From Neocallimastix sp. 'constans' (Eukaryota): a stretch of DNA of 64,000 bases. The DNA is taken from contig JBODTK010000147.1 in the NCBI GenBank assembly GCA_050613775.1, forward strand, positions 62,001 through 126,000, in the 5' to 3' direction. The translations under genes and the position numbers were made by a program. Under the pieces are notes generated by a model. That model was not told the DNA's origin. It made no database searches and saw only the letters and a program-made list of their open reading frames with translations. This document shows positions 11,722 to 62,900 of this stretch, piece by piece. Numbering within the stretch: position 1 is the first letter of the stretch; every line of letters begins with the position of its first letter.

Positions 11722-11863
11722 TATAGTTTAATAGCATAATAATATTAAGTTTATAAAATAGATTTAATAAGTAAAAAATTTAATTATTTTAATTTTATAG
11801 AAGTTTAAGCCTTTTAAATATAGAAAATTTAGTTTAATTTTTTTTTTTATAATTAATTTGAAA

Positions 11864-14800: not shown

Positions 14801-16339
14801 GAAATTATTGACCATGAAAATGAAATAAATAAAGCATGTCGAAATGAAAACACTAGAATAAATGATAATATAAGTGAACCTGAAAATATAGATGATGATT
14901 TGAATCAACCTCATATAGAATTAGAACAATGTCATAATGAACATCAGCAATCTGATGACCAACAGATTGAAAATAATCAAATCGGTGATATAGAAAATCA
15001 CAATACAAATGAAGAGGAGCAATATATTGAAGAAAATAAAAATAATGATGTAGAAATTCAACATTTTAATGACTATGAACAATTAATTGAAGAAAATCAG
15101 AATGATGAAATGGACAATCAGCAAACAGATGAAGATAAACAGTATATTGAAGAAAATCATCATAATAATGTAGAAATTCAACAATCTAATGAAATTGAAC
15201 CACTAATTGAAAAAAATCAGAACGAGGAAATAGAAGAAAAGCATATTGAAATAGAACATAATGAAAGTTTAGAGGGTCAAACACAAATAGAAGAACAACT
15301 AGTCAAAAAATATTATATTAAAAGTTTAGGAGATCATCAATACAATGACCAAGTAATTGAAAGCAATCAAATTAACAGTTTTGAAAAACAACAAATGCAA
15401 GAAGTCGAGGAGAATAAAGATAATCTATATGATCGGAAATATAAGATGTATGAAGAGACAGTTAATGAAATAGTAAATGATGGCCAAGATCAAAGTAATG
15501 AAGAAATTCAAAATGAAATAATTGATCTTCATTTTAATAATAATATTGGTGATACAAATCCATATGAAAATATAGGGGATAATGCGATACAAAATATGCA
15601 TGAGGAGCACTTTTATGAGGATGATAATAATGATTTTGAGAATAGTCTAAATGAAAATGATATAGATAATACTGAAAATAAAAATGAAGAAGAAAGTATA
15701 GATAGTATTCAACCTGTCGAAGATAATTATAATAATTATAACGTCAATAATGATAATGAAGATATATACAGTAGTTTTGAAAATAAAGATTTAACTACGA
15801 AAGAAATGCTAATTTCAATTGATCAAGATAATAAGAGAGAAATTTCATTTAATTATAATAATAGTAAAAATAATGAAAATAATAAATTAGATGATATACT
15901 AGTAGAAGAAGAACATCAAACTTTAGTAGATAATATAGTAAATGATATTGAGGAAGAAGATAATTATGATAGTCTTGAAGTAGATACATATATCAATGAA
16001 CAAGATAATATTGAAGATGTAAATGTCGAAGAAATAAATATTGAAGTATATGACGAAGATTATATTCAGTCTTCAATAGAAGAAGATCACATGAATGAAG
16101 TAAATGAAATAATTATTGAAGATACAAATGAATATGAAATAAAAGATGATCTTATGAGAGAAAAAACTAAAAATTACTATTATAATGACATGGAGGAGAA
16201 TCAAGATATAGATGTAATGATGAATGATAGCAAAGATGAAGAATTAAATGATCAAATAATGTACATTGACACATTAAATTTTAATCAAGAAATTCATCAT
16301 GGGTATTATAATGAAAGTATATTCAATGAAACTTTTTAA
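11864..16339 (+). CDS. BTB/POZ-domain protein with a putative N-terminal MATH/TRAF-like domain and a ~1100-aa Glu/Asp/Asn-rich tail (1491 aa)
   Basis: Uninterrupted 4.5-kb ORF; first ATG is at 11864. BTB signature YSDVEFEIG..KVIKAHRVILASRCPSFKILF..FKALIDYHYKG..LLDLAYQYHVYNL (~12410-12718). N-terminal SKEFFCNGATWIIKI resembles a MATH strand pattern (weaker evidence). Confidence 0.85.
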   Translation: MSTYISNINSYYFTTTVEINANYSSKEFFCNGATWIIKIENITNNSMDIKFSYNGNPRNTSSVRLSINNGSKNECFSIDRKNHYIHNYSLDEFYNKNFCLYQFQYDSIETINKITVGITLINSSTDYSYLQYFSEKVIPENYILLPSASSYNDVYIHEIEGKQYIYSKYIDQINNFNNFTQEYSDVEFEIGKHQKVIKAHRVILASRCPSFKILFEEQALHNNSSNGILRIVLPSYNYTSFKALIDYHYKGKCYIPKSRKVLGDLLDLAYQYHVYNLIESIEEKLANPENNYLEEENEEIDTDTFENEEINSNNRDIHLFKLDSILKSKTLKCQKCSNGQLKRKRELNEIDDLLLLNDQRYANGKYKTIRLTEQGEEYYDGFNYNRMKKQSTMNEGMDDSYKNMFNSIRFTENEPGLSEDSILNEIDSEEGDQQLSKDIRVEIIDVESGLSDSNPEERMSENDRDVEEYETDRVEVNVSLDETKSNSDDKMNEIVDLPVEFDDNKEKNEDDYENGYEEEIENVENEVIENEEMENEEIENEVIENEEIENVENEVIENEVIENEEIENEEIENEEIENEVIENEEIENEVIENEEMENEEMENEEIENEEIENEEIENEEIENEEVKYEEVTSKEIENEEIENEEIENEEIENEEIENEEIENEEIENEEIENEEIENEEMENEEMENEEMENEEIENEEIENEEMENEEMENEEMENEEIENEEIENEVEIEDEFEELEDKVETKEYEDEGEIEIESNDNYENNEGNEDKYSTSEKDILEKEISMDSISLSDTESDEIHQEDENIEDIHESFINNNENKNENKKIFNNEENNNEIVEISNGNENENEDEDEDKNKKDKSSENLNILEDHEEEYDPTIINEETSTYENTNEENYFGMELNNVIPPKEHLNIRDDINEFYNTSKKKRNKENYNENHELNDEDNDNQTNIELNYENEIFFNSEFELERYHGNNNEIHDDDNEIIDHENEINKACRNENTRINDNISEPENIDDDLNQPHIELEQCHNEHQQSDDQQIENNQIGDIENHNTNEEEQYIEENKNNDVEIQHFNDYEQLIEENQNDEMDNQQTDEDKQYIEENHHNNVEIQQSNEIEPLIEKNQNEEIEEKHIEIEHNESLEGQTQIEEQLVKKYYIKSLGDHQYNDQVIESNQINSFEKQQMQEVEENKDNLYDRKYKMYEETVNEIVNDGQDQSNEEIQNEIIDLHFNNNIGDTNPYENIGDNAIQNMHEEHFYEDDNNDFENSLNENDIDNTENKNEEESIDSIQPVEDNYNNYNVNNDNEDIYSSFENKDLTTKEMLISIDQDNKREISFNYNNSKNNENNKLDDILVEEEHQTLVDNIVNDIEEEDNYDSLEVDTYINEQDNIEDVNVEEINIEVYDEDYIQSSIEEDHMNEVNEIIIEDTNEYEIKDDLMREKTKNYYYNDMEENQDIDVMMNDSKDEELNDQIMYIDTLNFNQEIHHGYYNESIFNETF
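13410..14050 (+). repeat. Coding 15-bp minisatellite (GAAAATGAAGAAATT variants) encoding (ENEEI/M/V)n, about 40 units
   Basis: Tandem repeat directly visible inside the BTB ORF. Confidence 0.95.
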
Positions 16340-21438: not shown

Positions 21439-23166
21439 TTAACAGTTACTACGAATACCACACCAATCGTCATTTTCAACTCCCCAGTCACCAGTTTCAT
21501 CAGAATAAGCAACATCACAGCTACTACAACATTCATAGCCCATTTCACCATAGACACTTGGGCAAATGTCAACAGCTTCATTAATGGAACCGGAGCAATC
21601 AGTACGAATACCACACCAATCATTATTTTCAACACCCCATGCACCATCGCCATCTTCATAGTAGACATCACAATTTCCTTGTTCACAACAACTATAACCT
21701 TGACTTAAGATACTCTTTGAACATTGATTAGCAGAAGCAGCTTCAGTTTTATTTGAGGTTTTAGTAGCCGTTGCCTTTTTAGTGGTAGTCTTCTTATTAG
21801 AGCCTCCACCAGTACTGTTACTACCACTACTTGTAGTACCTTGATGAAGGATGGTTTGAGTACCAGTAGAATATTCATCACCTTCATCACTACTTGGAAT
21901 AACCATTTCAACATCCTTAGCTTCAATAACAGTACTATCAGCTAAAGTTACACGGAAAGTGTATGGACCTGCACCGAAACCACCAGAGTTAAGAGCCCAA
22001 TAATTATAAGCACGTCTCCATAAACTTTCATAGTTACCATTATTTAAAAATTCAACCTTAGCAACTGGATAACGAGTATTGTAAACTTCAACTTCACCCC
22101 AGAATTGAGTACTTCCAGTCTTAAATTGGAATTTTAGTGGGGAATCTGGTTTCAAGAGAGCAGGCCAATCTGGAATATCAACATCACATGGAATAAGAGC
22201 CCAAGTAATCTTAATACGATCTGGCGTTTTATTGGAAAGAGCCTTAAAGGCAATATCACTAAAATCTAAACTTCCATGTTCACATTCTGGACATTGATCA
22301 ATAACACGTATTCTAACAGCCTTGTATGGATTACTAGTTGAAACAACAACAGCACAAAGACCACATCCTTTTTTTTTAAAAGGAAAAAAATATATATTTA
22401 TATATATATATTTATTGTTTTTAAAATAAATTTAATAAATATTACAATAATATTAATATCAATTTTGAGAATTTCAATAATATTTCCATTTTTAAAATTT
22501 TTATTTCTATTTAATAATTATTCATATATTTATATCTATTTATGAATATATATTTTTCTATTATTTATACTAATATTTTATTTATATAATATATTCTTTT
22601 AAAATATCATTTATAACAAAATTCTTTAATTTAATGATAAATTTATTAAAATTTACTGGTTTTTATAATTATTCCGTTCTTACATAAAAATATTTGTCTT
22701 TACTTTTATATTATATTAATGACATATCCTTTTTAAAATAAAGAAAAAACTTATATGTTTTTTTTTTTTTTTTTTTTGATTAAATTGTAACACATAAATC
22801 ATTTCAATTTATAATAATTATAAAATTTATAGAGTTATCAATTCATATATATATATTATTTTAACATTTACCCATATCAAGATTATATTGTTTATTGTTA
22901 AGAGCAGCATACATCATATCAGCATAGTATTCCTCTTTTGGGAATAAACAATTACCACCTGAAGTGGCATCACCATAAGCAGTACCATCACCACTATAAA
23001 TTGGACCATCTACAAAATATTCCTTAAAGTTTTCACTATAATTTTTAGTGTTTGCCTCAATTATTTCAACGATACCTGGATAATTTTTGAAGGCATCAAT
23101 GCTACCAGTACCAGCACTAACGATAGCAATTAAAGAATTGATTAAAGTTAATTTTCTAAAATTCAT
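21439..23166 (-). CDS. Secreted expansin-like protein (DPBB + CBM63-like domains) with a Thr/Ser/Lys linker and two C-terminal fungal dockerins; exons 23166-22872 and 22367-21439, 407 aa
   Basis: Signal-peptide-like [18 protein letters not shown]. Expansin motifs [71 protein letters not shown] intron (22871-22368) joins the two ORF-track pieces in frame. Dockerins [27 protein letters not shown] and [29 protein letters not shown]. Confidence 0.93.
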
Positions 23167-23505
23167 TTCTGTATTTTTTTTTATTGTTATTTTTTTCTTT
23201 TGTTTGTTTCCTTTATTGTTCTTTTGTTTATATAAATTATTATTTTCAAAATAATATTAAATAATTGTTTTGTGTTTTTTTTTCTTTAATTACAAATTAT
23301 GTTGTTATAAATTATATTAAATTTGATTTAAAAAAAAAAAAAAAAAAGATGAATCAAATAAATCAATTATTTTACAGTATATAAAAATTAAAATTATTTT
23401 CTATTTTTATAATAATAATTTATCTTTTTTTTTTTTTTTAAAGTATTAAAAATAATTTAAGATAAAAAAAAAAAAAGGAAATTCTTATAAATATTTATAT
23501 TTTTT

Positions 23506-31794: not shown

Positions 31795-31795
<1 letters not shown>

Positions 31796-32065
31796 GTTAA
31801 ATATAACACTTGAATTCAGAAATGATATTTATATTTTATTATGTGTTTATTTATTTATTTATTTATTTATTGCTTTTACATTTAGAAAGACCTTATTCAT
31901 TTAAGAATATGTTATTATATGTTATTTATATTTATTTTCTAGTCTAACATTATTGGTAACATTTAACGTTACACTGCATTATATTATCGAATAAAAAAAT
32001 ATTTTACACTTAATAATGTAGTATAATGTACAATGTAATTAAACACATAACTGTGATATTTAACA
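31795..32065 (-). repeat. 3' LTR of the Copia element (271 bp)
   Basis: Direct repeat of 37493-37730 with a few substitutions and ~33 extra nt. Confidence 0.95.
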
Positions 32066-35000
32066 TTCCCCCTACATTGGCATTTTCTACATTTCCATGA
32101 TGAAGTCCTGCGAAGTATTTAAGCTTGGGTCCAGAAATACTTTTGGTTAATGGATCTGCCATCATTGAGTTAGAACCAATGAGTGTTAATTTAATTTCAT
32201 TTTTCATAATTTCATCTTGAACATATTTGTATTTTATATCCATATATTTGCATCGTCCCTTTTGGTTTTCATTTTCAGCTATATCCTTACATGGTTTATT
32301 ATCTATTCTAATATTAATTCTAATGTTTTTTGTTAAATATTTCATTAACTAATTTTCTTATCCATATAGCTTGTTTGGTACATTCTATTAAGCTTGAGTA
32401 TTCGACTTCTGTGGTTGATAAGGCTATATTTTTCTGTGTAATTGATTTCAATGATATTGGGCTATTTCCTTAATACAAAAATATATCCTGAAGTGGATCT
32501 TCTTTTAACCTCATCACCAGCGAAATCTGCATCACAATAAGCTCTTAAAATTTTCTTTCCGTTATATAATGAAGTGAATAGTCCTTGGTACTTTTAAGAT
32601 ATTTTAGTATTTGTATACCTGCGTTCAAATCAGCTTTTGTTTGGATTCTCAGAAAATCTTGCAGCTTGATTTATTGCAAATGCTATGTCAGGTCTTTTGT
32701 TTTTTGTTGATACATATAATAGAGAATCCAATTAATCTTTTATAATCAGTTTTGTTAATTTTCTCAGAGTTTTCTCTATCTTCTAATTTTGCATTAATAC
32801 ATGGTATTCTAGTTATTTTAGTATTGTTTATGTTGTAGTTAGTTAACATTTTTTCAATATAATCCTTTTGATTAATTTTGTAGCCTTTATTTGTTTTTAA
32901 CTATATTGATTCCAATAATTTTGTTTGCTGATTTATCTGTGGAGACTTTGTATTTACGTTTTATCTTTGAAACAACTTTGGTAATTTCTTTATTCTCTCC
33001 TGCAATTAGTATATCATCAACATAAAGTGTTAGTAATAAGCATAATTTATTATTTTTATATTTACCAAATAAACAACTATCTGTATTATATTGAATTAAC
33101 CCAATTTTCTTAAGAAAACCGGAGATTTCGTAAAACTATTGTCTTCCAGCTTGTTTGAGTCCATAGAGAGCCTTTCGTAATAATCCTGATTTTCCGCAAT
33201 TGAAATTTTTATCACCGATTGGAATTTGTACATAAATTTTCTCATCTAATTTAGCATTCAAATATGCAGCTTTAATATTAATTTGTCTTAAATCCCATTT
33301 ATATATAGATGCGATAGCAATAGTTAATCTAAAACTATGCCATTTCTATTGAAGGAGAATAGGTGCAGTTATAATCAACTCCTTTAATTTGTCGAAAACC
33401 TTTGACGACCAATCTAGCTTTATATATACCATTATTTTTTATAGTAAAAACCCATTTAACGTCGAGTGGCTTAATGCCTTTTGGGATATTTTTATTTTCA
33501 ACAATTTTCATTACATTATTTCCATATAAATTTTGTAATTCTTTGTTAATTGCGTCTTTCCATTTGTCCGCATTTTCTGAATTCATAGCTTCTTCATAAT
33601 TCTTGGGAATTAATGTATTTAATATTATTGACTCTATTTCTCTTACGTCTTTTCGTTTTCATCTGAGTCTATTTTCCTTTCAAAAAAAATGGTTTATTTG
33701 ATGTAGATACTCTATCTTTTATTTTTCTTTCTTCATTCGATTGATAATTTTTTCTTTTTTCTTTTTCGATAGTTTTTTTGTTTTCTCGTTATCAATTTTA
33801 TCATTTTTGTTTACTAGTTTATCGAAAATTTTATTATTTCTTTTAATATTAAATTTAAAGTTCTTTTTCTTTGTTCTTTCTTAGTTTTCTTTTACCTAAA
33901 GGTTCCAGATCACTAAAACTGTCCTCAGATTCATTCTCTGAATTATAGTGCTATTCCAGAAGATTTAGCTATAAAATCAAATATCTTGAGTTGTGAACCT
34001 AATTGGGAAGAAACAACTTCACATCTAATTAAAGTTTCTCAACAATTAAAGAGCATACAAGAAGTCATTCATTTTATTATTATCATATATATTTTATTAT
34101 TTTCCAAATTTGATTTTTCATTCATCTTCATATTAGCCAGATTTTTATGATTGCTTTCAATTCTATTCTCAATAAGTTTCTGGTCTAAAATTTCATAATT
34201 ATTAAGGTTTGATTTAGATAAATTTTTATAATTATTAAGATTTGAAAATTTTAATTTATTCTTAAATTTGAAAATTTTGAAATTTTTTATTCAAATTTTT
34301 ATTAATAAAACTTATTTTTTCACATTTTTGTTCAAAAAAAATCATTTTTTGTGATTTTTATACCCTTTATGTTATTATCGTTATTTCTATTAATAATAGT
34401 ATTATTTTCATTACTTTTACTATTGTCATGTAGGGTTTTGGCATGATTTTCGTTTGATGAAATTTTTATATTATCTTCAATATTTGAATTTTTGAGTATT
34501 TCCTCTTGTTTTTCAGCTAATTTTTGATTTTCATTAATTTTATCTTCATTGATTTTATCATCATTAATTTTATCTTCATTAATTTTATTTTTATTAATTA
34601 TGTCTTTATTAATTATGTCTTCATTAATTTTGTTTTCATTAATTATTTCGTTTTCTGAATTATTATCCAACATGTTTTCATTATTGTATTCATCCATTAA
34701 ATCAATATTATCTTCAATATTAATTTTATTCGGTTTGTTTTCATTCATTTCAAATTCATTATGATAAATAGATTGACTAAATTGAGGTTGTGAATCATGT
34801 TGTGAGTCCAGTTCCCACCTCAATTTGTTTATCTGAAGGATTTGAGGAATGAAAAAATGATATGCCAAGTGAACCTAGAGTACTTTCATTGAAGTATGCG
34901 TCACGAACTATAATTATTGTTTTTTGAAGTAATGTCGAGGACACGATAACCTGGAGAGAATCTGATGAGTATCCTAAGAAAATACCTGGTTTTGTATTAT

Positions 35001-37478
35001 TTTCAAATTTTCCTTGTTTGTATCTATTAAGGAAAAATACTTTATACATCCAAACACTTTAAGTTTAGATATATCAATTTTCTTATTAAAAAAATAACCT
35101 CGTTCGGGATTTTAAAATTAATTCCTTGATGCGGATTTAAATTATACAATATACATGCATATTTAATAGCTTCATCCCATAAAATAGGTGATAATTTAGC
35201 TGCACTAAGTAATGTTTTTCGCGCAGTTATCTAATGTCTGATTTAATTCTTTCAGCGCGACCATTTTGTTGGGGATTACCTGGTGTTGAATGATTAAATA
35301 TAATTCCATTATTTTTTTAAGATAATTTATAAAATTAGAATTGTTATATTCTAAACCGTTATCAGATCTTACTTCTTTTATATTGTAATTACAAGTATTT
35401 TTCTTAAGTTTATGAAACTCAATAAAATTTTTGTACTGCTTCAGATTTGTGTTTCAGTAAGTAGACCCAACATTTTCTACTGAAGTCATCTATGAATGTT
35501 ATATAATATTTGTATCCACTAAATGATGGTGAAGACTTTAGTGGTCCTACGATATCAGAATGAACGACTTGTAATGGTGAGGAACTTTTGTTGATTGTTT
35601 TGTTGAATGGTTTTTTTCTTGAGTTTACTTATTTTGCAATCTTCACAATTTATATTATCATTCTTTTCTTCCTTAATGTTGTTGTTTTCTAGAAATTTTT
35701 GAAGATTTTGATTGTAATAGTGGCCTAATAAAGCATGCCATAATTTTAAATCGACATTGTTTATATTATAATCTTTACTTTTCATTGAGCTTTATTTAAA
35801 GGTAAAGAGGTTTTCATCATTTGTATAAACGGTAGTAATTAGTTTATTATTTTTAAATATTTGGAGTCTTTCTTTATTGTTATGCATATCCATTACTAAT
35901 TTGAAGCCTTTTTTTTACATAGGTAATGAGTGGAAATTAAATTATTTTGTAATGTTGGAGCATAAAATACTTCTCCAATAGAAAAATTATTATTTTTATA
36001 CATTCCTTTGTACATACCCTTTTTGTATATTCTATCGGATTGTCCGTTTGGGTATGTAATTCCTCTATTAGCAACTTCTTCAATGTTTGATAGTATTTTT
36101 ATATTCTTAGATAAATTAATCCCTGTTCCATTATCAATGATCCATGATTTTATATATTGTTATCTTCCATAATATTATTTTCTTCTTTTTAAGATTTCGG
36201 TAGTTATACTTTATTTACCCTTATGTTCCTGGAAGTTATTGAATTGTTATTAAAATTATCTTTTACAATATTAGTTTTTATATTGAAGCAGAAGTCGAAT
36301 GAAGGATTTGAATCTGAATTCGAATTGTTTTGTTCTTTATAATTAACGTTATAAGATTTGAAGTTTCTTTTTTACTACCTTTCCTGTTTTAAAGATGTTC
36401 TTTTAATTTTTTAATTTTGTTTCTTGACTTATTATTAATATTTTTCTTTTCTCCTCTATAGTTATTATTTGGTGAATTCGATGGGTTGAAGAAACAGTTA
36501 TCAGTAGTGTGCCCATTTTTATGGCAATATTGACAGTATTTCGTTGGAATTTGCTTCTTTATTAAAATTATATGGGAGTTTCCCATTTTCGGACTCTATT
36601 AATTTGATCTTCGTGTTGATATATTTCCTTGATTTCTACTCTCGTTTAATACTTTTACTTTTCTTAATTATGGTACTTAGTTTTGTTATGTCTTCTTTTA
36701 AATCCTTAAATGTCTTTTCAACATATATAGAAATGTGAATGAATATGCAATGCCGACTTTATTTTAGTTCCTCTAAAGAATACAAGACTTTTGTTTCTTC
36801 ACTTAGTTCTGGCTTATTTTGAGATTTTGCCTCGTTATTGTATTCTGTAAATAATGAGTTAAGATTATCTAAATACAGTTTAAAGTCATCGTTTTTCGAT
36901 TTCTAGCTTTTTTTTTATCTTCATTTCAATTTCAAATAATCTTGAAGGGCCTGTTTCTGAAAATCTTTCCTTTAATTCCTTTATCATTAAGTAGGCACTT
37001 GTACAATTATTTAATAAGCTTTTTTGTATATTCGTCGAGGCTGTTCAATATTATAATTCTGACTGTACTGTCCTATTTTAAATGTTTTTTTTTATTTGTG
37101 TTTATATCTTTAATATTTTTTGATATATAATCACCCAATTCTTCAGAATCAAGGAATAATTTTAAGTCTGAATACCATTTGTGAAAGTTTTCATTTGTAA
37201 TTCTAAAGTTTTGAATGTGAAATTTATTAATTGTGTTGGTTTGAGTATTTGGAGGTTCTACTTCGACAAGAGTATCATTCATTGTTGTACTAGATGTATT
37301 TGTAGTCTTTGTTGCCCTTGAAGAAGTTTTTGAAGAACTCCCCGTAGCTGTTGAATTATCTGATTTAGTCATTTTAATGTGACTGCTAATATTTCTTTAT
37401 TTTAATATCTAATGAATGTTTAATATTTTAATATATTGGATTTTGATATCACCAATTGTTAATGAATTATTGAGTCAT

Positions 37479-37492
37479 TGAGACTCTTAATC
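37479..37492 (-). promoter_or_regulatory. Primer-binding site GATTAAGAGTCTCA, complementary to the tRNA-Lys(CUU) anticodon arm
   Basis: Abuts the 5' LTR. The same 14-mer abuts the 5' LTRs of the two other elements (40896-40909 and 41390-41403). GACTCTTAATC is the conserved eukaryotic tRNA-Lys(CUU) anticodon stem-loop core. Confidence 0.8.
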
Positions 37493-37730
37493 TGTTAAAT
37501 ATAACACTTAAATTCAGAAATGATATTTATATTTTATTATGTGTTTATTTATTTATTTATTTATTGCTTTTACATTTAGAAAGACCTCATTCATTTAAGA
37601 ATATGTTATTATATATTATTGGTAACATTTAACGTTACACTGCATTATATTATCAAATAAAAAATATTTTACACTTAATAATGTAATATAATGTACAATG
37701 TAATTAAACACATAACTGTGATATTTAACA
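37493..37730 (-). repeat. 5' LTR of the Copia element (238 bp)
   Basis: TG...CA ends, adjacent PBS, repeat of 31795-32065. Confidence 0.95.
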
Positions 37731-37914
37731 ATTATTATTATTATTATATACTTTTTTTATTTTATTCTATTTTTTTTTTTTTTTTTTTTTTGTTTTTTTT
37801 AGGCTTTCTTGTAATGGTTAATACTTCTACAAATTCAACAACAATACCTGTTTTGCGGCGAGGCTTTCGAAGATTCGATATTCAGAATAATGATTTCATT
37901 CTTATCTTTAATTC

Positions 37915-41163
<3,249 letters not shown>

Positions 41164-41169
<6 letters not shown>

Positions 41170-44100
41170 AATATATGAGCTTATCTATTAAATGAATCTA
41201 GAATAATGATAATACAAGTTATTAATATAAACATAATATAATGTAATTAATTAAAGGTATTTTAAAACAAGCCAACATCTTTAGTATAAATACATGTAAA
41301 TTTCATTATGTTGAATGTTGACTAATTACATTACCTATTTATATATACTTATAAATAACCATATGAATAAAACTTCATATTCAATAATAGATTAAGAGTC
41401 TCACCGGACTCTCAGTGACTCTTAAGAGGATTCTCTGAAAGATGAAAACCAAAAGCCGGACACATAAAATATGATTATCAAGAAGAAAGTTGTTTAGAAT
41501 TGAAGAATGCCGAATACTCGATCCCCCTCCCCCATATCCATAACCGTGTGAAAAATCAAATCTTTAGAAAATCTGAAAATCGAGATATTGAAATCTCAAA
41601 AATTTTGAAATTCAATAAAATATTTTTTTAACCTCCAACCAATATTTAAGAATTACTTAAGGAAATACTAAAGCTCTATTTACTCTTCAAGAAATAAGTT
41701 AAGATTACCCAAAGCGAAGGATGAAAAAAAAAAGTACACCAGGAACCAGGATGTATTGAAAGTTTTAAACTACGTCTATTCGTCAGATGAAATTCCATGT
41801 TACCACCAATGTATGAAGGATATTTTTGAATTTGCAAAAGATTTTTCTGAAAAAAAAAAAAAAAAAAGATTAAAGATGATGTTTGGTGTGGATAATATAA
41901 ATAAACTTTTTTTTTTTTTTAAGTAAAATGAAAAAAAAAAAAAAAAAAAAAAAACTAATTCGTAACTTACATTTAAATCAGGTCTATCGACACAATGCCT
42001 AGAAGATGGAATAATTTAAAAAGAGATGATCCATATACGCTCAAAATTTAGTCTTTGTATGATTCAATGGACTGGTTTCGAGAACAACAAGAGCTAATAG
42101 ATGAAATATAATAATTATAAAAAAAAAAAAAAAAAAAAGTATCTTTTAAGCATGAACTTTATATTAATGATGAACCAACTAATTGAAAAATACCATAAAA
42201 TTGTAATAAATTTTAATTCTATTAGAACTAAAAGATAAAAAATAAAGAGTATTGGAGTATTATCGAAAAATGAGGGGAAAAAAAAAAAAAAAAAAACTAA
42301 AACACCCTATTATACAGAATTTCGTATGTGTAATGATTATGAAAAACCTCAAGATATTTATCAACACCACAATAGAGGAAAAGTTGCCACTGACATATTC
42401 AATGCAATGAAAGGATGTTGTAAACCTGAAATGCTTTATTGTTACCTAAAAGGACAACTAAAATACCGAGTTGCTAAATACAAATTTCGAAGTTAATACT
42501 TCTAGCTAGTAACACAAATACAAATTGATATTTCAAATAGCCTTAATACCGTTGATATTGAAGACTTGTAACTGTTGATTCTGATAAGAAAAGAACCAAA
42601 ATATTTTTTTTTCTACTTTAAATGAATTAACATATATATCAAATCGCAATAAACAATAATATAAGACAACACACCAACACCAGAAATAAAAAAAAAATAA
42701 ACTTATAACTCTCATAGTTGAATGTCTTAATTCTATTCGTATAAATTATTGGAGAACCAATCACTATTTCTAGTGGGTATCGTAATCAAGAAGTAAGTAA
42801 AACAAAGCAATAAATTCAACAAATAAAAAAAAAATAATAATAATAATAATAATAGTCAACACACGAAAAGTGAAGCCGCGGATCTTCAACCATGTAGTGG
42901 TACTGAACATCCAAAAATTTGGAGGAAAAAAAAAAAAATTTTTTTTTTTTTTTTTTTAGTATTATACAATGCTATAATTAAAATTCAAAGAATATGATTA
43001 ATTTATTATTAAAAAAATTGTTTATGGGCACACGTCCGTGACAAAAAATCCCAAAAAAAATAATCGTCACGAAAACTTCGTTACTACGATGGTAAAAAAT
43101 CACGGAAAATAACCAAATATCCAATTATTACTGATGAAGTTCAAGATTACATTAATATAGGTAAAGATAAGCAAGGACTGGCCAATGAAAGCCAGTATTT
43201 CTAATAATTCAGACCCTAATGAAGATTGATACTTGTAATTACGAATCCTATCGACACAGAAATAAATGATAAATCCGATCGGGATGACAATAAAGAAATT
43301 CTTTGATAATAAACCTCAACTCAAGTGCTGCTAACAAAATAAAATATACTTCTTTCCTAAAATACTTTCAGAATATTTATAGTATTCATGATTTGGGAAT
43401 TACATAGTTATATTTTAGAATTTTCAATATTTATAAAAATATAAAGAGTTACTCCTTATGTCACTATATAAAATATCCATTTAAATTACCATAGATTTCA
43501 TTCCATAATCAAAACTATAAATACTTGTGGCCAGAGAAAAGAAAAGAAAACATAGAATATGTAAATATCATATATTAAAAATATGCAATAATATGTATTC
43601 TACTTAAAAAGAGGTTAATCACAAACGCACATATCAAAACCACTTATATTCCAAAATAGTACTAGAATATACAACCAACAATTAATTTATAATTAACTTA
43701 GAATTAATATATAATAAATTACTTATATAAATGAAAGAAATTATAGTTAACTTGTGGTTAATTATTCTCCCAAAATATTTGCACAAATATAGAGTATATT
43801 ATTAAAAAGTAAAAAATATATAATTTAATTTTTATCCGAATATCATGGTATAGCTTAGCATGAAATGAATATTTACCATGGATACTACTAATTTTAGGTG
43901 ATGGTGTAATGCCTTCACATAATCGTAAGGATTCCCATCCACAATGGTATAACACTTTTCTTTGAAAAAAGGTTCCATTGTTATTATGATGACATTGATT
44001 CATCATGTATTATTACAAATCAACCTTCAAAAAATGTTAAGACGACTTATTTATTAACGATGAGATTATTGGACTCTTCCTTATCACCACTTAAACAAAT

Positions 44101-45954
44101 TGGTTCACATTTCCAATCGACTGAGCTGACATCATACAGTAAAAATGTGATTATCTATATTAATTAATTATTTAACTAACGATGAATTTAACATATTATA
44201 ATACTTTTATGAAAAAGTTAAATGTGAAAATTAATCATTCATTTTTTAAATTTTTAATCATTCAAATCTAAATATTTAATTCCTAAATTCTTATATTTGA
44301 GGGGGGAATAATGATCACATGTAAAAAAAAATTTAAATTAAGAACATAAACGAATATGAGAAAACATCAATTATAAGTTAATTAAAGCAAAAACCAAAAA
44401 AAAAAAAAAATTTTTTTTTTTTACTAGAATATCATTTAGTAACTAAGATTGATCTCATCGAAAAAGAAGATTTAAAATATCAAAAAGAAGAAAACGTAAA
44501 TAAAAATTTACATGATAAGACTAATATTTCTCAAGATTACTAAAATGACTAAATTATCCATTTGCATATTAAAGAACCCTAACAGGGAAATTTTGAAAAA
44601 ATTAACCTACAAGAAGAAATTAATTGAAATATGAAATCTTTATCAATTATGCAGCAATTTATATTATTTATTAATAAGTTTAAATGACTAAAAATAACAT
44701 AATGAATTATAAATGAAATCACTTTTAATACCCCAAAATTATATTTTATCAAATACACCAATATATAATAATCAACATTTTTATGTAAAAAATAAACAAA
44801 TAATTTCATAAGAGATTTCATAATAAATATTTAAAAGCAAATCACAAGGTTAATATTAAACCCATAGAAGAGTGATAAATAAAAGATTGATAAATTGGTT
44901 ACCTCTTACCAACAAAAGTACACCCTGTTGCAAGGTTAATTATTTATCCCACAAAAAGAGATTATAATAAAATAAATGGTTTCTATCTCTTTATCTAACG
45001 AAAGTATGGTTGAAGACGATAAATCGAAGATACCACTATATAATAAATTTACATCTAAAATTTTTAAAAAGTTAATAATAATTTTATATAATGATTGCAA
45101 GACACTTTATACACTTTATTGTAACAATACTTAATTCGATGAAGTTTTTACAAAACTCATCTAATATGAATCTCAAAACTACAAAGCGAAAATATGTTAA
45201 TAGTTAATGCTAATTTATAAAGCAATATTTAACATAGTTATTACTAAAACGACAAAGTGAAATATATATAAAAATTAGCGCTAACCCACAAAGCTGTTTA
45301 TAACTGAAAGTGATGTAAAACCCAATATTTAAGAGGTATTCATACAAATTGAGATGTGTATAATATCACCCTTCAAGAAAAAGGTTTCCATCATACAAAT
45401 AGTAATAAATAAACCATATATTATGAGAGATGTTTTAGATACATCTAATATTAATGGTGTAATAATATTAAATATTTAGTTTTAAGGGGAAATTATTTGA
45501 TTACAAATATAATTAAGAAATTATTTTAGCAATATTTAAATCGAATTAAAGAAATTAAAGAAATGGAAAAAATATTTTATTCATGTAAAATTAAGAGGTT
45601 AATTTAAAATAGAAGTAATTAATAGTTTAATAATATCAAGTTAATATTATAAAATAGAATAATTTTATATATACATATTCACCAGTAAACCAATTTATTC
45701 ATTATAGAATAATTTGGTTTTATGAGGGAATGTTACAATATGTGAATTTATATATTAAATGAATCAAGAATAATGATAATGTAAATTATTAATATAAGCA
45801 TATTATAATGTAATTAATTAAAAGTATTCTAGAACAGGCCACATTTTTAGTATAAATACATGACATGTAAATATCATTATGTTAAATATTGTTAATTACC
45901 TATTTATATTTACATATAAATAACCTTATTAATAAAACTTTATATTCAATAATA
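41164..45954 (+). mobile_element. 4.8-kb LTR-bounded element (LARD-like) without recognisable gag/pol, carrying decayed cargo coding sequence
   Basis: Diverged direct repeats 41164-41389 and 45731-45954, with shared blocks TATTAAATGAATC.AGAATAATGATAAT, TATAATGTAATTAATTAAA, TTTAGTATAAATACATG and AATAAAACTT.ATATTCAATAATA. PBS at 41390-41403; PPT GAGGGAA before 45731; internal TTGAGGGGGGAA at ~44297; (ATT)n on both sides. Confidence 0.85.
42592..43100 (+). pseudogene. Frameshifted peptidase M15 (M15A/Peptidase_M15_3-type Zn peptidoglycan peptidase) of bacterial/phage type
   Basis: Stitched translation: EPKYF..TLNELTY..IAINNNI-DNTPTPEIKK..LITLIVECLNSIRINY-GEPITISSGYRNQEV..NSQHTKSEAADLQP..LYNAIIK-FKEYD*FII..LWAHV..NNRHE. 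Contains SGYR (42772-42783), the H-x6-D Zn ligands (42860-42883) and the WxH third ligand (43025-43033). Confidence 0.85.
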
Positions 45955-46053
45955 ATTATTATTATTATTATTATAATTATTATTATTATTATTATTATTA
46001 TTATAATTATTATTATTATTATTATAATTATTATTATTATTATTATTATTATA

Positions 46054-46125
<72 letters not shown>

Positions 46126-46155
46126 ATTATTATTATTATTATTATTATTATTATA

Positions 46156-46186
<31 letters not shown>
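45955..46186. repeat. (ATT)n microsatellite with periodic ATA interruptions
   Basis: Directly visible. Confidence 0.95.
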
Positions 46187-47289
46187 GTGTTATTTTTTTT
46201 TTTCGTTATTTTTAATTAATATGAATTTTTTTTATTATTTATTATTTATTATTTATCATTATTATTTATTATATAACATTATTTATTTCTAATATTATTT
46301 ATTATAGTTTATAATAATTTTATTATTATTATTATTATTGTAGTTATTACTGTTATTTTTAATTTTTTTTTTTTTTTTATTAATTATTATGATTATAGCT
46401 GATGATATTATTTCTTATATCATCATTTTTTATTATTATTTATTATTATTATTATTATTATTTGTATATATTATTATGTAATATAATTTTTTCATATTAT
46501 TAATTATAATCAAATTATTTTTTAATTTTCATTATTTATCATTAATTACTTATTTATTATTATTAATATTACAGGTATTTTTTTTATTATTCATTATTAC
46601 ACTAATATCTGTACATTAATTGACAATAATATTAATAATAGTAATAATAATAAGAAATAAAAATAAATAATAGTAATAGTTATAAATGAGTAGTGAATAA
46701 TATAGTAGTTAAAAATGATAGTTATTAGTCATCATTATTATATCTAAAATTTAATATAATTAATAGTAAAAAAAAATAAAATAAAATAAAAACTAAGTGA
46801 ATATGGCTGTTGTTAATTATAACTATTATTCATCGTTATTCTATCTAACTCTAAAATTTAATATAAGTAATAATAAAAAAAATAAAAAAAAATAAAAAAG
46901 TTTTTAACAAAAATATGAATAAAAAAAATAATTATTGTTATGAATACTGCTTAACATAATTATAAATTAATATTTATAATTAATAGAAATAATCATAAAT
47001 ATTAATAATATTTAATAATAACAGTAATAAAAGAATCATAATAATAATAATAATTAATAATTAATGATTATTAAATATTATTTATTATTTATTATAATTA
47101 ATTATAGCTATTTCTATTAATTTTATCTCTATTAATACACAGATAATTCTAAAAAAAATTGAAATAATGGTGATAATGATAAATAACATTCAAATAATAA
47201 TAAATAATAAGAATAATAAAAATATAAATAATGAATAATAAATAATGAATAATAAATAATAAACAATAAATTATGATAATAATAATAAT

Positions 47290-56986: not shown

Positions 56987-59900
56987 ATGTTACAAGGAAC
57001 AAGTTCTATTGAAGTTTATAATATTTTAAGGTATAAAAATAATTATTTTATTTAATATTTGAATTTAAATATATTTATTTAATCCCAACTATAAACTTTT
57101 ATTTTATTATCAATAGTTATATAATTAATATTTATCAAAAATTAATATTGTTTATAGAATTTTTATTTATCAAAAAAAAAAAAAAAAAAAAAAAAGATAA
57201 TGTTGTTATTGGCTAAATAAAATTAATATTTACCAAACAATTGATATTACTATTTGTTTAGAATTAATATTTACAAAAAAATTTATATTGTTAATCTTTT
57301 AGAGTTAATTATTTATCAAAAATTAATATCGTTATTAGTTTAGAATAATATTTACCAAAAAATTCATTTTATTAATAATTTAGAATCGATAGTATATAAT
57401 TAAAAGTATCAAAAAAAATTTTTTTATATTAATTTTTTTTTTATAATTAAAAAAAATTTATTTTAAATATAATATTATATATATAAATATTTTTATCTTT
57501 TAATGAAAATATTATAAGAAAATTACGTGAAATTGGTGAAAGAATAGAAAATACTATTGATACTGTGATTATTGATAAATGCCAAATAAATAGATTATGG
57601 AATAGGTTAAATCTATTTTTAAAAGAATTTGAAGATGTTCAATCAGAAAATAGTGGAAACATATCAAATAGTTGTTTCAAAGAAGTAAAAAGATTATTTT
57701 TACAAATAGAAAGTCATATTAAAAGCTACAAGAAATATGGTCCATTTAAAAAATTAATTTCGAATAATGAATTGGAAAAAACATTTGATAATTATAATTC
57801 ACAGTTAGTCTATTATAGTTTACAATTAGGATTAAGAAATTTACCTTACCTAAATAATTCAGTTCGTGATATGGAAGATCAGGATGATAAAGAGGAAGAT
57901 AATGAACATTTTAATTCTACATTAAATTCTGCAATGGCAACTGATGATCTTCTACTCTCATTTTTAGGATGTGTTACTGATCGAGAAATGATTATTGAAG
58001 CTATTTCTACCTTAGAAGATATTATTAATGAAGGTATTATTAAATCAGATATTCAATCTTACCAACCCTTACCCAATGGTGACGATGGGGATCGTAAATT
58101 AGTGTATATTCAATCGAATTCTAAAGAAATAATTTCAATTACACGTAATTATAAAAAACCTATAATGAATCGAAAAAAATATGCTAATATTGATAACATC
58201 GTTTATGTATGTGAATATCTTAAGAAGAAGGCCGAAGGTTTATCAATTGAATCAAAAAATTGGCAAATTGCTAGTTGGGATATTGAAATTTGGGAAAAAC
58301 TATCGGTAGGTCCTTTCTCTAAGATTTATAAAGGTTTTTGGTTAGGTAATGATGTTGCTGTTAAGGAAATGTCTTATCAAATTAATCGTGTTCGTATCCG
58401 TAAGGAATTTTACAAGGATGTAAAAATGTGGTTTAATTTAAGTCACCCTAATGTTCTTTCCTTATATGGGGCCAATATTCTTGGGGATTATCCATTGGTA
58501 GTTATACCGTTGATGAAAAATGGAAATTTAATTGATTACATTGAAGGTAAGGAAAGGTTATCTCTTCTTAAATTAATAGAAATTTTAATTGGTGTTAGTT
58601 CTGGTATGGAATATTTACATGCTAAAAATGTGGTTCATGGAGATTTAATGGCGAGAAATATTCTTTTAGATGAACATTTACAGCCACATATTTGCGATTT
58701 CGGTTTTAGTAAGTGTAGAGCCGACGTGGATCATCACTCTAAATTGAAACGTTTAGATTCGTTACGTTGGACTGCTAATGAAGTTCATGAAAGTTTTATC
58801 TACACTAAAAAATCTGATGTGTATAGTTTTGCTATGCTTTGCTATGAACTTTTCACCTGGGGTGCTGTTCCATTCCAAAATTTATCGGAACGTTTTCTTT
58901 CAGAAGCCGTTATTGCTGGAAAACGTCCAGAATATCCCGAAGGTTGTCCAATGGCCATATGGAGGTTAATGGAACAGATGTGGAATGGGAACCCAGAGGC
59001 TCGTCCAGATTTCAGTGATATTACTCGTTATCTATATCATTTTAAGACTGAATTAAAACGCCAAGCCTTACAGGATAAGGACAGCATTTCAGAAGGGAGA
59101 GTTCCATCAAATGAAGAATTAAATGAACCTCATTATCCAGTTTATATGGAGGATAATACTGCTAGTCCAGCATTATCCAATGACTATATTGATAACAACA
59201 GTAGTAATCCTAGTGTCGACTCTCCTCTCTATCTTAATAACAATAATCCTAATGTCGACTCTTCTCCGCTTTATCTCAGTAACAATGATCATCCTAGTGT
59301 CGATTCTTCTTCCTATCTCAATAATAGTCATCCAACTGTCGATACTACTTCCTATTTTAATACCAATCATCCAAATGTAGATTATCCTAATAGCGGATCA
59401 GATAACTACAGTCCACGAGTTTATCAGTTTAGTCCGGGACGTTCACCACATCTCATATCAGGAATGGAGGATGTTTCAGGATCTGGTTCAGGAACAGGAT
59501 CTATTGAATTGAATTCCTCAGTAAGTCAAAATATGTCACACTCTTCCAAATATCCTTCTATGCATAACGATGCTACGCTGTTGAAGTCGAATGTGACTTC
59601 GCCATCAAAGTCTATTGCAATTCCCTATATCAAGAATCCTCAAGGTCGTCCAGTGGTTATTGGAAGTCACAAAGCTCAAGGTAGCGGTCGTAGTTATAGC
59701 CACAGTCATTCTCATTCTCTTAGTGGTAGCTTTAGCTATAATGGTCATTCAGTTTATCCACATTCACCATCCAATTCTAGTAGTAATATAGTTATGTCTA
59801 TTCCGGTTGGAATGCATCCAGTACAATTTACTTCAGAAATGCTACCAGAACGTCTTTCCTCCATGCAAATACATAGTAGTTCCGTAAAGAATGGTAAGGT

Positions 59901-62900
59901 TAAACCGATCAATGTAGTGCAAAGTAATTATCGCCAAAGAAATAATTCTTCTTCTTCGGCAACGACGGTCGGTCCTTCCTCTTCTTCTCTTACCACTTCT
60001 CAAGCTTCTCCAAACATCTTAAGTCCAAGAGGTGGAGTTGGTAGTAGTAATGATAATGGTAATGGTAACGATAATGGTAACAATAATGGTAATAGTAATG
60101 GTAATTTGAAATCTTCAAACAGTATCTATCGCTTATCAAATGGGGGAAATAGTATTACTAATTTAAAGAGAGTAACTTCCACAAATCATCACTATCATCA
60201 TAATCCGGAAGAGGATGAAATTGATTCAAGTATGGTCTTCACTCCAACTAGAAATGGTTATCTCTCTCAATCAGCTTATGATTTTGCCTTTAAGGAATTA
60301 GAGGAAGAAATGTATCCACAAAAAATGTACCTTACTCGTACGAAAGGTGAAGAAATTGATCAAGAAAATTGGAATGAATTTTCCCTTTCTGATGAAGATG
60401 ACTATGCTGGTCATTATATTGAAAATTATTTTGATGATGATTACGTTGATATATACTCACAACCCAACTTCAATGAAATTAATGATAGTTATAGACATCG
60501 TATTCAAAAGATTTTTGAAAATGACATTGAACTTTCTTCCATCTATGAAAATGAAAATGATGAACTCTATCAATATAGATATATGGTAGATGATAATATG
60601 CTCAAGGGAATGACAAGTAATTCTTCTGGTAATAACTATGCCTCCTATGGTACTACTTCCAGTTATAATAAGAGAAGATCTAGTCAAGGTCTAACCATTG
60701 ATACAACAAGGAAATCACGTTCTTATTCACGTTCTCATGCTACTGCTAACCCTTTGAGTAGTGGTAATGGAAATGATAATGGTCATGGTATTAGTGATCA
60801 TCGATCTCGTTCTCGTTCTCATTCTAGATCTAGAACACGTTCTAAATCTAATAATAGTTTTAGTAAACCTAAATATTCTTTTATGGACATGGAATCGTTT
60901 GATGGAACTCCAGGTATGTCTGCTGCGACTCCAACCTCAATGAATACTCCATTAAGTCAACGTAAACTTTCCATAGGACCAAGACTTTCATTCTCAGATA
61001 ATAAAACTCATGATAATGATAATGACAATAATAATAATGATAATGATAATAGTAATGTTAATAATAATGGTAATGGCAATGTTCTTTATCAAGATCATCG
61101 TCGAAATCAAAGTCAAGGTCAAAATCAAAATCATGGAGTTGATCATCGTCGAAGTCAAAGTCAAGGCCAAAATCAAAATCATGGAGTTGATCATCGTCGA
61201 AGTCAAAGCCAAGGTCAAAGTCAAAATCAAAATCAAGGAGTTGATCATCGTCGAAGTCAAAGCCAAGGTCAAAGTCAAAATCAAAATCAAGGAGTTGATC
61301 ATCGTCGAAGTCAAGGTCAATATTATAAAAGTCAAGAATCTCAACCTTATCAAACACCACCTGCTTCAAGACCTCATTCACCTTATATCTACGGTGATGA
61401 TATTGATGATGATATGAAAGGGGAAGATAGTACAGAGAATTATAGTAAAGGTAAAGCAAATCTTAGTATTGATACTAGTAATTTATTACACTCTATGATA
61501 AATAGTATGAGCCTTCATGAAGAAGGAGTTAAGGAAGATCAAGATAATTCGGGTAATTCCTATTCAGTTCCTTGTATTTCCGATCGTACAGAAGGTGTTT
61601 ATCGTTGTGATATAAGGAAAGATATTACTTTTAGTTTTATGGATGATGATGATTTATCTGTTTATTATCCAAAGGAAGAATATTGTCTTTCTAAGTTAAC
61701 TTTCCCAGGTATTAATCCTGAAGCAATTCAACCTCCAACTTTTAAAACAGATTTCATTCAACAAATTTGTATGGAAGTTCCAACTGAACCAATAGAAAAG
61801 AAGGATTTCGCAAGAGAAATGCTTCTCAATATTTATATGAATGAATTTAAGGTACGATTTGGTGAATTTAAATTTGAGGAAGTAATTAAAAAGAATCGTA
61901 TTGAATTTAATACCTATGGATTCAGTGATTGGTCGTATAAACGTTCTGCCTATAAGGTTTTAATTGATATCATAAAATATACTCATATTAAGCATTTATT
62001 TATTCGTAATTGTCGATTTGGTGATCCAGCTATTGTTGCCTTAGCAAATGCTTTAATATTTAATGATGAATTTACCATTATTGATATTACCTTCTGTTCT
62101 AAACGTTCTCGTCCACCACAAGAAAATAATATTATGGATATTATTCGTTATGATGCCTCTAATCTAGATCCAAAATGGGTATTGAATACTAATGTAACGG
62201 CTAAATCGGGTCAACTCTTTGCTAATCTTGTACAACAAAGTAAGAATTTAAAGGCAATTCACTTAAGAAATGCAGCTTTTGGTGATGATTGTGCTATCAT
62301 GATGGCTAATGCTCTTCAACATAATAAAAATATTGAAGATTTTGAATTAACTAATTGTGAAGTTCATGAATCTGGTGCAGTAGCCTTTGCTGAAGCTCTT
62401 AAAACTAATAAAATACTTTTACGTCTTATACTTCAACAAAATCCAATTGAAGATAAGGGAGCTATTGCTATTTCTTCTGCTTTACGTAAAAATAAAACGT
62501 TGAAATATTTATTGCTTCAAAAATGTGGCCTTACCTCTAAATCTATGTCCTCCTTCACCCTAACTTTTCTTAACAATTTAGGCTTAGAATTAATAAAGTA
62601 GAGTATTATTTATATTTATATTATAATTTTTATTTCATTTTTTATTTTATTTTATTTTATTTTATTTTATTTTATTTTTTTTATTTTTAAATTTATAATT
62701 TATTTATTTATATTTTATTTATTAATTAATTTATTTAATTTTTTATTTTTATTTTTATTTTTTTATTTTTATTTTTTATTTTTATTTTTAATTTTATTTT
62801 TTTAATTTTATTTTTTATATTTATTTAATAATATATTGAATATATGTATTTTTTTTTTTTTTTTCTTTTTAAATCTTATTAATTAATTCTTTAGGTTCAG

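What the first reader, a model, noticed from the sequence alone, without database searches (positions are those of the whole stretch)
42592..43100. Phage/bacterial-type peptidoglycan hydrolase (peptidase M15) carried inside a fungal LTR retroelement
Seen: across frameshifts the + strand gives KYF..TLNELT..NNI-DNTPTPE..L..LIVECLNSIR..YGEPITISSGYRNQEV..SQHTKSEAADL..YD*FII..WAHV..NRHE, lying in sense orientation between the PBS and PPT of the element at 41164-45954. Established: this motif order (F-T-x-x-E-L, IDNTP, PIxIxSGYR, SQH-x6-D, DQLI, WVHVS, NR) typifies M15A-family Zn peptidases found as endolysin-like genes in Bacteroidetes and their phages, and gut fungi live among such bacteria and acquire genes from them. 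Inference: a non-autonomous Copia-dependent retroelement family has captured and spread an antibacterial cell-wall hydrolase, i.e. a cargo-carrying retrotransposon system in a rumen fungus. This copy is dead and is absent from the ORF track.
Basis: partly seen in the sequence, partly recalled or inferred. Interest (0 to 1): 0.88.

Follow-up and report, generated by a model that had tools for sequence, protein, structure and literature searches.

The report
Dead retroelement carrying bacterial wall-cutting genes
In a gut fungus, a 4.8 kb jumping-gene shell holds a broken copy of a phage-type enzyme that would cut bacterial cell walls, plus a probable second one, and similar broken copies occur elsewhere in related genomes, likely because the shell picked up a gene the fungus had borrowed from bacteria, spread it briefly and then decayed.

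Summary
A frameshifted peptidase M15 lies in sense orientation at about 42599-43111: 45.6 bits frameshift-aware against a shuffle maximum of 22.8, with the Zn ligands H/D/H present. It sits inside an LTR element (41164-45954) with 10.7% diverged LTRs, a FunCo1-type tRNA-Lys PBS shared with two neighbouring elements, a short PPT, and no gag/pol detected. Independent contigs confirm the breaks in 42310-42814 and show at least 3 copies, 8-11% diverged from this one, about equal to the LTR divergence. A N. lanati paralog shares the interior to within about 255 nt of the 3' LTR. So a family is likely, but no other copy's LTRs were seen. No intact copy was found, the listed substitutions look neutral, and expression is not shown. 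Both gene types are already published as bacterial transfers into other gut fungi (PMC11291939). Best reading: a fossil LARD-like element that captured a borrowed host gene, not a working antibacterial system. The scan had not noted this on other DNA.

The parts
41164..45954 (+). Non-autonomous Copia-type LTR element (LARD-like), 4791 nt, inserted in an (ATT)n microsatellite
   Evidence: no tblastx hit to the neighbouring Copia; no gag/pol Pfam hit in any frame
41164..41389 (+). 5' LTR (ends TA...TA, not the canonical TG...CA)
   Evidence: 192 matches, 23 mismatches, 14 gap columns against the 3' LTR
41390..41403 (+). Primer-binding site GATTAAGAGTCTCA, complementary to the anticodon arm of tRNA-Lys(CTT); FunCo1 type
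   Evidence: same word directly after the 5' LTR of two other elements in the window; its reverse complement lies in tRNA-Lys(CTT) in 5 of 71 viral loci; PMC5445492 passage
41966..42415 (+). Probable decayed phage-tail-lysozyme domain (PF18013); the ESGL motif reads KSGL; start boundary approximate
   Evidence: Pfam 21.4 bits, E 3.2e-4, below the cut-off of 28.2, at 42047-42409; frameshift-aware 24.7 bits at 42290-42415, 0 of 200 shuffles as high, next tile 20.9
42599..43111 (+). Decayed peptidase M15A/M15_3 domain; Arg of SGYR 42781, Zn ligands His 42860, Asp 42881, His 43031; no ATG in front of KYF
   Evidence: sequence
43188..45476 (+). Unassigned interior; pieces at 43188-43226, 44927-45198 and 45333-45476 are shared with a N. 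lanati paralog
   Evidence: tblastn of P0015; no Pfam or PHROG assignment
45600..45730 (+). 3' internal region similar to that of the adjacent small LTR element
   Evidence: 71% over 222 columns including the LTR start, E 4e-19, AT-rich
45724..45730 (+). Short polypurine tract GAGGGAA
   Evidence: sequence; the neighbours have AGGGGGAA and AGGGGGGAA at the same place
45731..45954 (+). 3' LTR (TG...TA)

Best explanation
This is a dead, non-autonomous Copia-type LTR element holding a broken peptidase M15 and a probable phage-tail-lysozyme domain, which it likely captured from a bacterially derived gene already living in the fungus and likely spread to a few sites in one burst before all copies decayed. 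Shown: the LTRs, PBS and PPT, the M15, real breaks, and at least 3 diverged copies. Inferred steps: (1) the two domains came from bacteria or phages, probably separately, and evolved for a long time as coding sequence; (2) they were probably one reading frame, lysozyme then M15; (3) the transcript was taken between the LTR cis-elements by template switching during reverse transcription; (4) a FunCo1-type Copia supplied Gag and Pol in trans, priming on tRNA-Lys; (5) the copies then decayed without selection. The intact protein would have cut peptidoglycan; that is predicted from family membership only.
For: Shell. Copies: in run X1, three distinct contigs cover 42310-42372 at depths 32, 37 and 36; paralogous gene models lie on different scaffolds of one assembly in two genomes; P0015 shares the interior to 45476. 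Timing: LTR-LTR distance 0.107 (CI 0.072-0.155) against window-to-copy distances 41/417, 6/76, 7/92 and 11/101, all Fisher p>0.5. Several of the window's breaks are absent in another copy, so the copied master was likely intact. Long coding history: the three fungal rows form one clade with a 1.48 stem and 0.09-0.19 tips; best phage identity 37% (quick tree). Separate origin: 0 of 47 and 0 of 5 M15-bearing phage records carry PF18013; published donors are Millionella for a fungal M15_3 and Clostridium for fungal PF18013. Decay: 4 synonymous of 17 listed changes.
Against: No other copy was seen with its LTRs or its flanks. The parent host gene was not found, and the published A. robustus and P. 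finnis proteins were not retrieved, so their kinship to this cargo is unknown. No lost intron or template-switch junction could be tested. The distance comparison has wide intervals and cannot exclude a duplication of similar age. The substitution list was cut by the tool (20 rows not shown). The long stem could lie in unsampled bacteria rather than in the fungus.
Confidence: 0.6

Rival explanations
1. One capture or insertion, later multiplied by segmental or whole-genome duplication or hybridisation; no family spread by retrotransposition.
For: Low copy number (3, perhaps 4, per sample). Flanks of the paralogs are unseen. Extensive duplication in Neocallimastix genomes is recalled, not checked here.
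Against: Three copies at equal depth exceed one doubling. All four window-to-copy distances fall near the LTR-LTR distance, which duplication would match only by coincidence.
Confidence: 0.2
2. A true cargo system: the element kept an intact lysozyme-peptidase payload under selection, useful against gut bacteria, and live copies persist in this or another gut fungus.
For: Two hydrolase-like domains in sense orientation behind the LTR. The master was likely intact when copied. Annotated M15_3 and PF18013 genes in A. robustus sit on small gene-poor scaffolds (43.6 kb with 7 genes, 28.6 kb with 3 genes). Repeat masking could hide intact copies from protein databases (inference).
Against: No intact homolog in four protein searches. 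All copies seen are broken and changes look neutral. RNA runs hold at most 0.07 of the words; one contig at depth 2.8 in the single RNA run laid does not show transcription.
Confidence: 0.12
3. A piece of bacterial or phage DNA landed directly in an existing element, with no fungal-gene stage.
For: Intron-less look, phage-type motifs, no parent gene found.
Against: Only 37% identity to the best phage protein; no DNA-level phage match; the domain pair is absent from 52 phage records searched; no other phage gene detected in the interior.
Confidence: 0.08

Closest known systems
LARDs, large retrotransposon derivatives (as described in PMC6431247, section 5 read)
   Same: Foreign DNA between two LTRs replaces gag/pol; under 10 kb; would move in trans
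   Different: Here the trapped DNA is a bacterial-type hydrolase gene and the host is an early-diverging fungus; mobility is inferred, not shown
LTR-mediated retrocopies (PMC5131818, abstract and opening read)
   Same: Sense-oriented gene copy flanked by LTR-element ends; may combine two parental genes
   Different: Parent gene, intron loss and junction micro-similarity could not be tested here
FunCo1 Copia clade (PMC5445492, passages read)
   Same: [quoted passage not shown]
   Different: No RT to place the element; LTR ends are TA...TA and TG...TA
Peptidase M15_3 / M15A endolysins of Bacteroides phages (BF503P2, crAssphage cr125_1)
   Same: Motif order and Zn ligands; 37% identity to BF503P2 over 129 columns
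   Different: Broken, long branch, no start codon in front, probably the C-terminal domain of a longer frame
Published bacterial transfers into gut fungi: A. robustus ORX64927.1 (M15_3) and ORX63940.1, P. finnis ORX49608.1 and ORX49610.1 (PF18013); PMC11291939 supplement rows
   Same: Same two Pfam families in the same fungal phylum
   Different: Listed as separate single-domain proteins; the rows read give no LTR context; not retrieved here, so orthology is untested

Membership tests
Peptidase M15A / M15_3 (PF08291) | Pfam gathering score 23.2 bits | tested here: inconclusive
   13.1 bits on one broken frame; the X-joined read-through was scored only against my own profile, 66.6 bits
Peptidase M15A / M15_3 (PF08291) | Zn ligands H-x6-D...H and Arg of SGYR (motif recalled; seen in the phage set) | tested here: met
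   His 42860 and Asp 42881 aligned; W-A-H-V aligned
Peptidase M15A / M15_3 (PF08291) | Intact frame and activity on peptidoglycan | tested here: not met
   frameshifts confirmed by independent contigs; activity not testable
Phage tail lysozyme (PF18013) | Pfam gathering score 28.2 bits | tested here: inconclusive
   21.4 bits, E 3.2e-4; fragments 13-16 bits; own profile 24.7 bits, 0 of 200 shuffles
Phage tail lysozyme (PF18013) | Glu of the ESGL motif (catalytic role recalled) | tested here: not met
   window reads KSGL; phage consensus has ESGL
LARD / non-autonomous LTR element | LTR pair, PBS, PPT | tested here: met
LARD / non-autonomous LTR element | No gag/pol | tested here: met
   a very decayed remnant could be missed
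LARD / non-autonomous LTR element | TG...CA ends and a target-site duplication | tested here: inconclusive
   ends TA...TA and TG...TA; ATTAT on both sides, uninformative inside (ATT)n
LARD / non-autonomous LTR element | Dispersed copies, each with its own LTRs and unrelated flanks | tested here: inconclusive
   at least 3 copies and a shared interior; LTRs and flanks unseen
FunCo1 Copia clade | PBS ATTAAGAGTCT | tested here: met
FunCo1 Copia clade | RT phylogeny | not tested
   the element has no RT; the neighbouring Copia RT was not placed in a tree
LTR-mediated retrocopy | Parent gene, intron loss, junction micro-similarity | not testable with these tools
   parent not found; no genome

The most novel reading that the evidence does not exclude
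A Copia-dependent retroelement lineage in gut fungi carries a selected antibacterial payload, a lysozyme-peptidase fusion assembled from two bacterial donors, and live copies still exist; the M15_3 and PF18013 genes annotated in other gut fungi would be members. That would be a retrotransposon acting as a vehicle for inter-kingdom weapon genes.
Probability: 0.12. Interest if true: 0.8.

Novelty: new variant of a known kind. Interest (0 to 1): 0.45.

Why it matters
It is a concrete case of a bacterially derived cell-wall hydrolase gene sitting inside, and likely amplified by, an LTR retroelement in an anaerobic gut fungus. It offers one route for the post-transfer duplication and domain joining of borrowed genes in this phylum. 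It also points to candidate peptidoglycan hydrolases of gut fungi that can be tested through their annotated relatives. As a fossil it says little about present function.

Tried and rejected
No whole genome held. No blastn match to phages. tblastn against phages empty for the lysozyme frame, P0002, P0015 and the frame at 43910-44164; plasmids empty; PDB sequence search empty. PHROGs: nothing below E 0.19 in 15 queries. Metagenome scans: 143 pattern hits with none confirmed, and 0 hits. GTDB scans: 0 hits, and 384 pattern hits with none confirmed; these need exact words and are weak. Viral motif scans 64 and 96 empty; the 2 hits are unrelated. ESM Atlas on P0011: no usable hit; the Atlas could not read a second stretch. 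Rfam on 37000-46200: 0. P0001 looked like an intact homolog but is a spliced model of this same locus; it was also the query of the one representative search, which covers the lysozyme end but little of the M15. P0010 in cluster 2 is a clustering accident. My first idea of a Polinton-like ATPase in the interior was dropped. RNA rows with shares of 0.07 or less are no evidence; 1 of them was laid. Read laying gave no cover beyond about 42834, where the tool skips repeats. The tree is the quick method; the careful search did not finish, and the two phages beside the fungal clade were chosen by similarity. In one search the 13 substitutions between 42422 and 42494 were dropped from the count because the frame there is unknown. 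Papers seen: PMC11291939 (supplement rows by search) and its preprint 10.1101/2021.12.02.471044 (passages); PMC8778642 (passages; 'M15' 0 times); 10.1101/487215 (term search of main text, 0 hits; supplements closed and may list such genes); PMC5445492 (passages); PMC6431247 (passages and section 5); PMC5131818 (abstract and opening). Searches listed no paper on an LTR-borne hydrolase in gut fungi; subscription papers are not covered.

Full report
Setting. The window is very AT-rich and holds a dockerin-bearing expansin-like gene. A public gene model whose pieces match this locus letter for letter is named Neocallimastix sp. 'constans'.

The M15 is real. Pfam alone is weak on a broken frame: M15_3 at 13.1 bits, E 0.11. 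I collected phage M15 genes with a motif scan (120 loci; 81 distinct proteins) and ran a frameshift-aware alignment. It scored 45.6 bits at 42665-42949, against a shuffle mean of 14.0 and maximum of 22.8 in 200, and 21.1 for the next of 254 tiles. The picking motif came from the window, so this is partly circular, but the Zn-ligand motifs were not in it. Read through with X at the breaks, the best blastp match in that set is Bacteroides phage BF503P2, 37% over 129 columns. A paralog finds the same phage independently at E 7e-4 among 50,697 records.

A second domain. Upstream, one frame hits Phage_lysozyme2 (PF18013) at 21.4 bits, E 3.2e-4, below the family cut-off. A profile from 109 phage domains scores its C-terminal part at 24.7 bits, with 0 of 200 shuffles as high and 20.9 for the next tile. 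I call this probable. There is no ATG in front of KYF, and one paralog contig's loose end and gap count fit an open frame running into it (my reading). So the cargo was likely one frame, lysozyme then M15. The pair is not a usual phage module: 0 of 47 records (50 submitted, 3 not held) and 0 of 5 records carrying such M15 genes have PF18013 (one locus may be shared between the two sets).

The shell. The LTRs at 41164-41389 and 45731-45954 differ at 23 of 215 aligned sites. GATTAAGAGTCTCA follows the 5' LTR directly, as it does in a broken full-length Copia at 31795-37730 (RVT_2 E 5.7e-28) and in a small element at 39838-41095. Its reverse complement lies in the anticodon arm of tRNA-Lys(CTT) in 5 of 71 viral loci, and it is the PBS described for FunCo1 (PMC5445492). 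The element shares its 3' region with the small element (71%) and shows no gag/pol. The LTR ends are not canonical, and the target-site duplication is uninformative inside (ATT)n.

Copies. Four runs of the 24 listed were laid on 42310-42920. Contigs identical to the window cover 42310-42722 in X1 and X2 and 42699-42814 in X1 and X14, so those breaks are real. In X1, three distinct contigs at depths 32, 37 and 36 cover the left end. One differs by 41 substitutions and 23 gap letters, one skips 251 nt, and further pieces differ at 7 of 92 and 11 of 101 sites. That is at least 3 copies, perhaps 4. Gene models show the same: P0012 on another N. 'constans' scaffold, P0004 and P0015 on two N. lanati scaffolds, P0011 in N. 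californiae. P0015 joins the M15 C-half to pieces matching the window out to 45476, about 255 nt from the 3' LTR. No call showed another copy's LTRs (empty).

Age and selection. The window-to-copy distances (0.098, 0.079, 0.076, 0.109) do not differ from the LTR-LTR distance of 0.107. That is what one burst from one master predicts, though the intervals are wide. The copies have different lesions, and several of the window's breaks are absent in another copy, so the master was likely intact. Of the listed changes inside the two domains, 4 of 17 are synonymous, near neutral; the list was cut by the tool. In a quick tree of 87 rows the three fungal rows form one clade with a 1.48 stem and 0.09-0.19 tips. 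The gene therefore had a long coding history before the copies decayed.

No living copy found. Three searches of the 90% protein collection and one of the 50% representatives returned only fragments and spliced models. They need shared words or used an imperfect query, and repeat masking could hide copies. One RNA-library contig at depth 2.8 covers 42310-42434; it does not show transcription.

What is known. PMC11291939 lists M15_3 in A. robustus (ORX64927.1, 140 aa, 1 intron, approximate donor Millionella) and PF18013 in A. robustus and P. finnis (Clostridium donors) as transfers. Gene capture between LTRs is established as LARDs (PMC6431247) and LTR-mediated retrocopies, including two-gene chimeras (PMC5131818). 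My searches listed no report of such a cargo in gut fungi.

Verdict. It works like a LARD with a captured, bacterially derived hydrolase gene; membership as a dispersed family is likely but the flank test is open. Fossil family by retrotransposition 0.6; duplication after one insertion 0.2; selected cargo system 0.12; direct landing of bacterial DNA 0.08. New variant of a known kind, interest 0.45.

Noticed in passing
window 39838-41095 (-): Small TRIM-like element with 100% identical LTRs over 186 nt and the same tRNA-Lys PBS. Its interior matches spurious 72-aa gene models on about 30 contigs of N. lanati and N. 'constans' and one in A. robustus: a young high-copy family with a conserved interior. 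No Rfam hit.
   Followed up: partly
window 31795-37730 (-): Full-length but broken Copia (RVT_2, rve, SH3, gag pre-integrase) with the same PBS; a possible helper type.
   Followed up: partly
window 31795, 37730, 39838, 41095, 41164, 45954: All three LTR elements are flanked on both sides by (ATT)n, which suggests a target preference for this microsatellite; not tested against chance.
   Followed up: no
window 41392-41425: The PBS core TTAAGAGTC is followed by its reverse complement about 16 nt later, and a similar arrangement is seen in the small element; it could fold over the PBS. Not folded.
   Followed up: no
window 37900-38800 (+): Decayed RVT_1 fragment (E 7e-5), likely a LINE remnant between the LTR elements.
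   Followed up: no
window 43860-44165: A coding-like stretch inside the element with an 85-codon open frame; unassigned.
   Followed up: partly
window 21439-23256 (-): Expansin-like gene with two CBM_10 dockerins, split by an intron.
   Followed up: no
window 57487-62601 (+): 1704-codon frame with a weak MLKL_N hit (E 1.4e-4), a kinase domain and an LRR-like C-terminus; possible immune-type kinase.
   Followed up: no
window 11801-16339 (+): BTB-domain protein with a very long acidic repeat tail.
   Followed up: no
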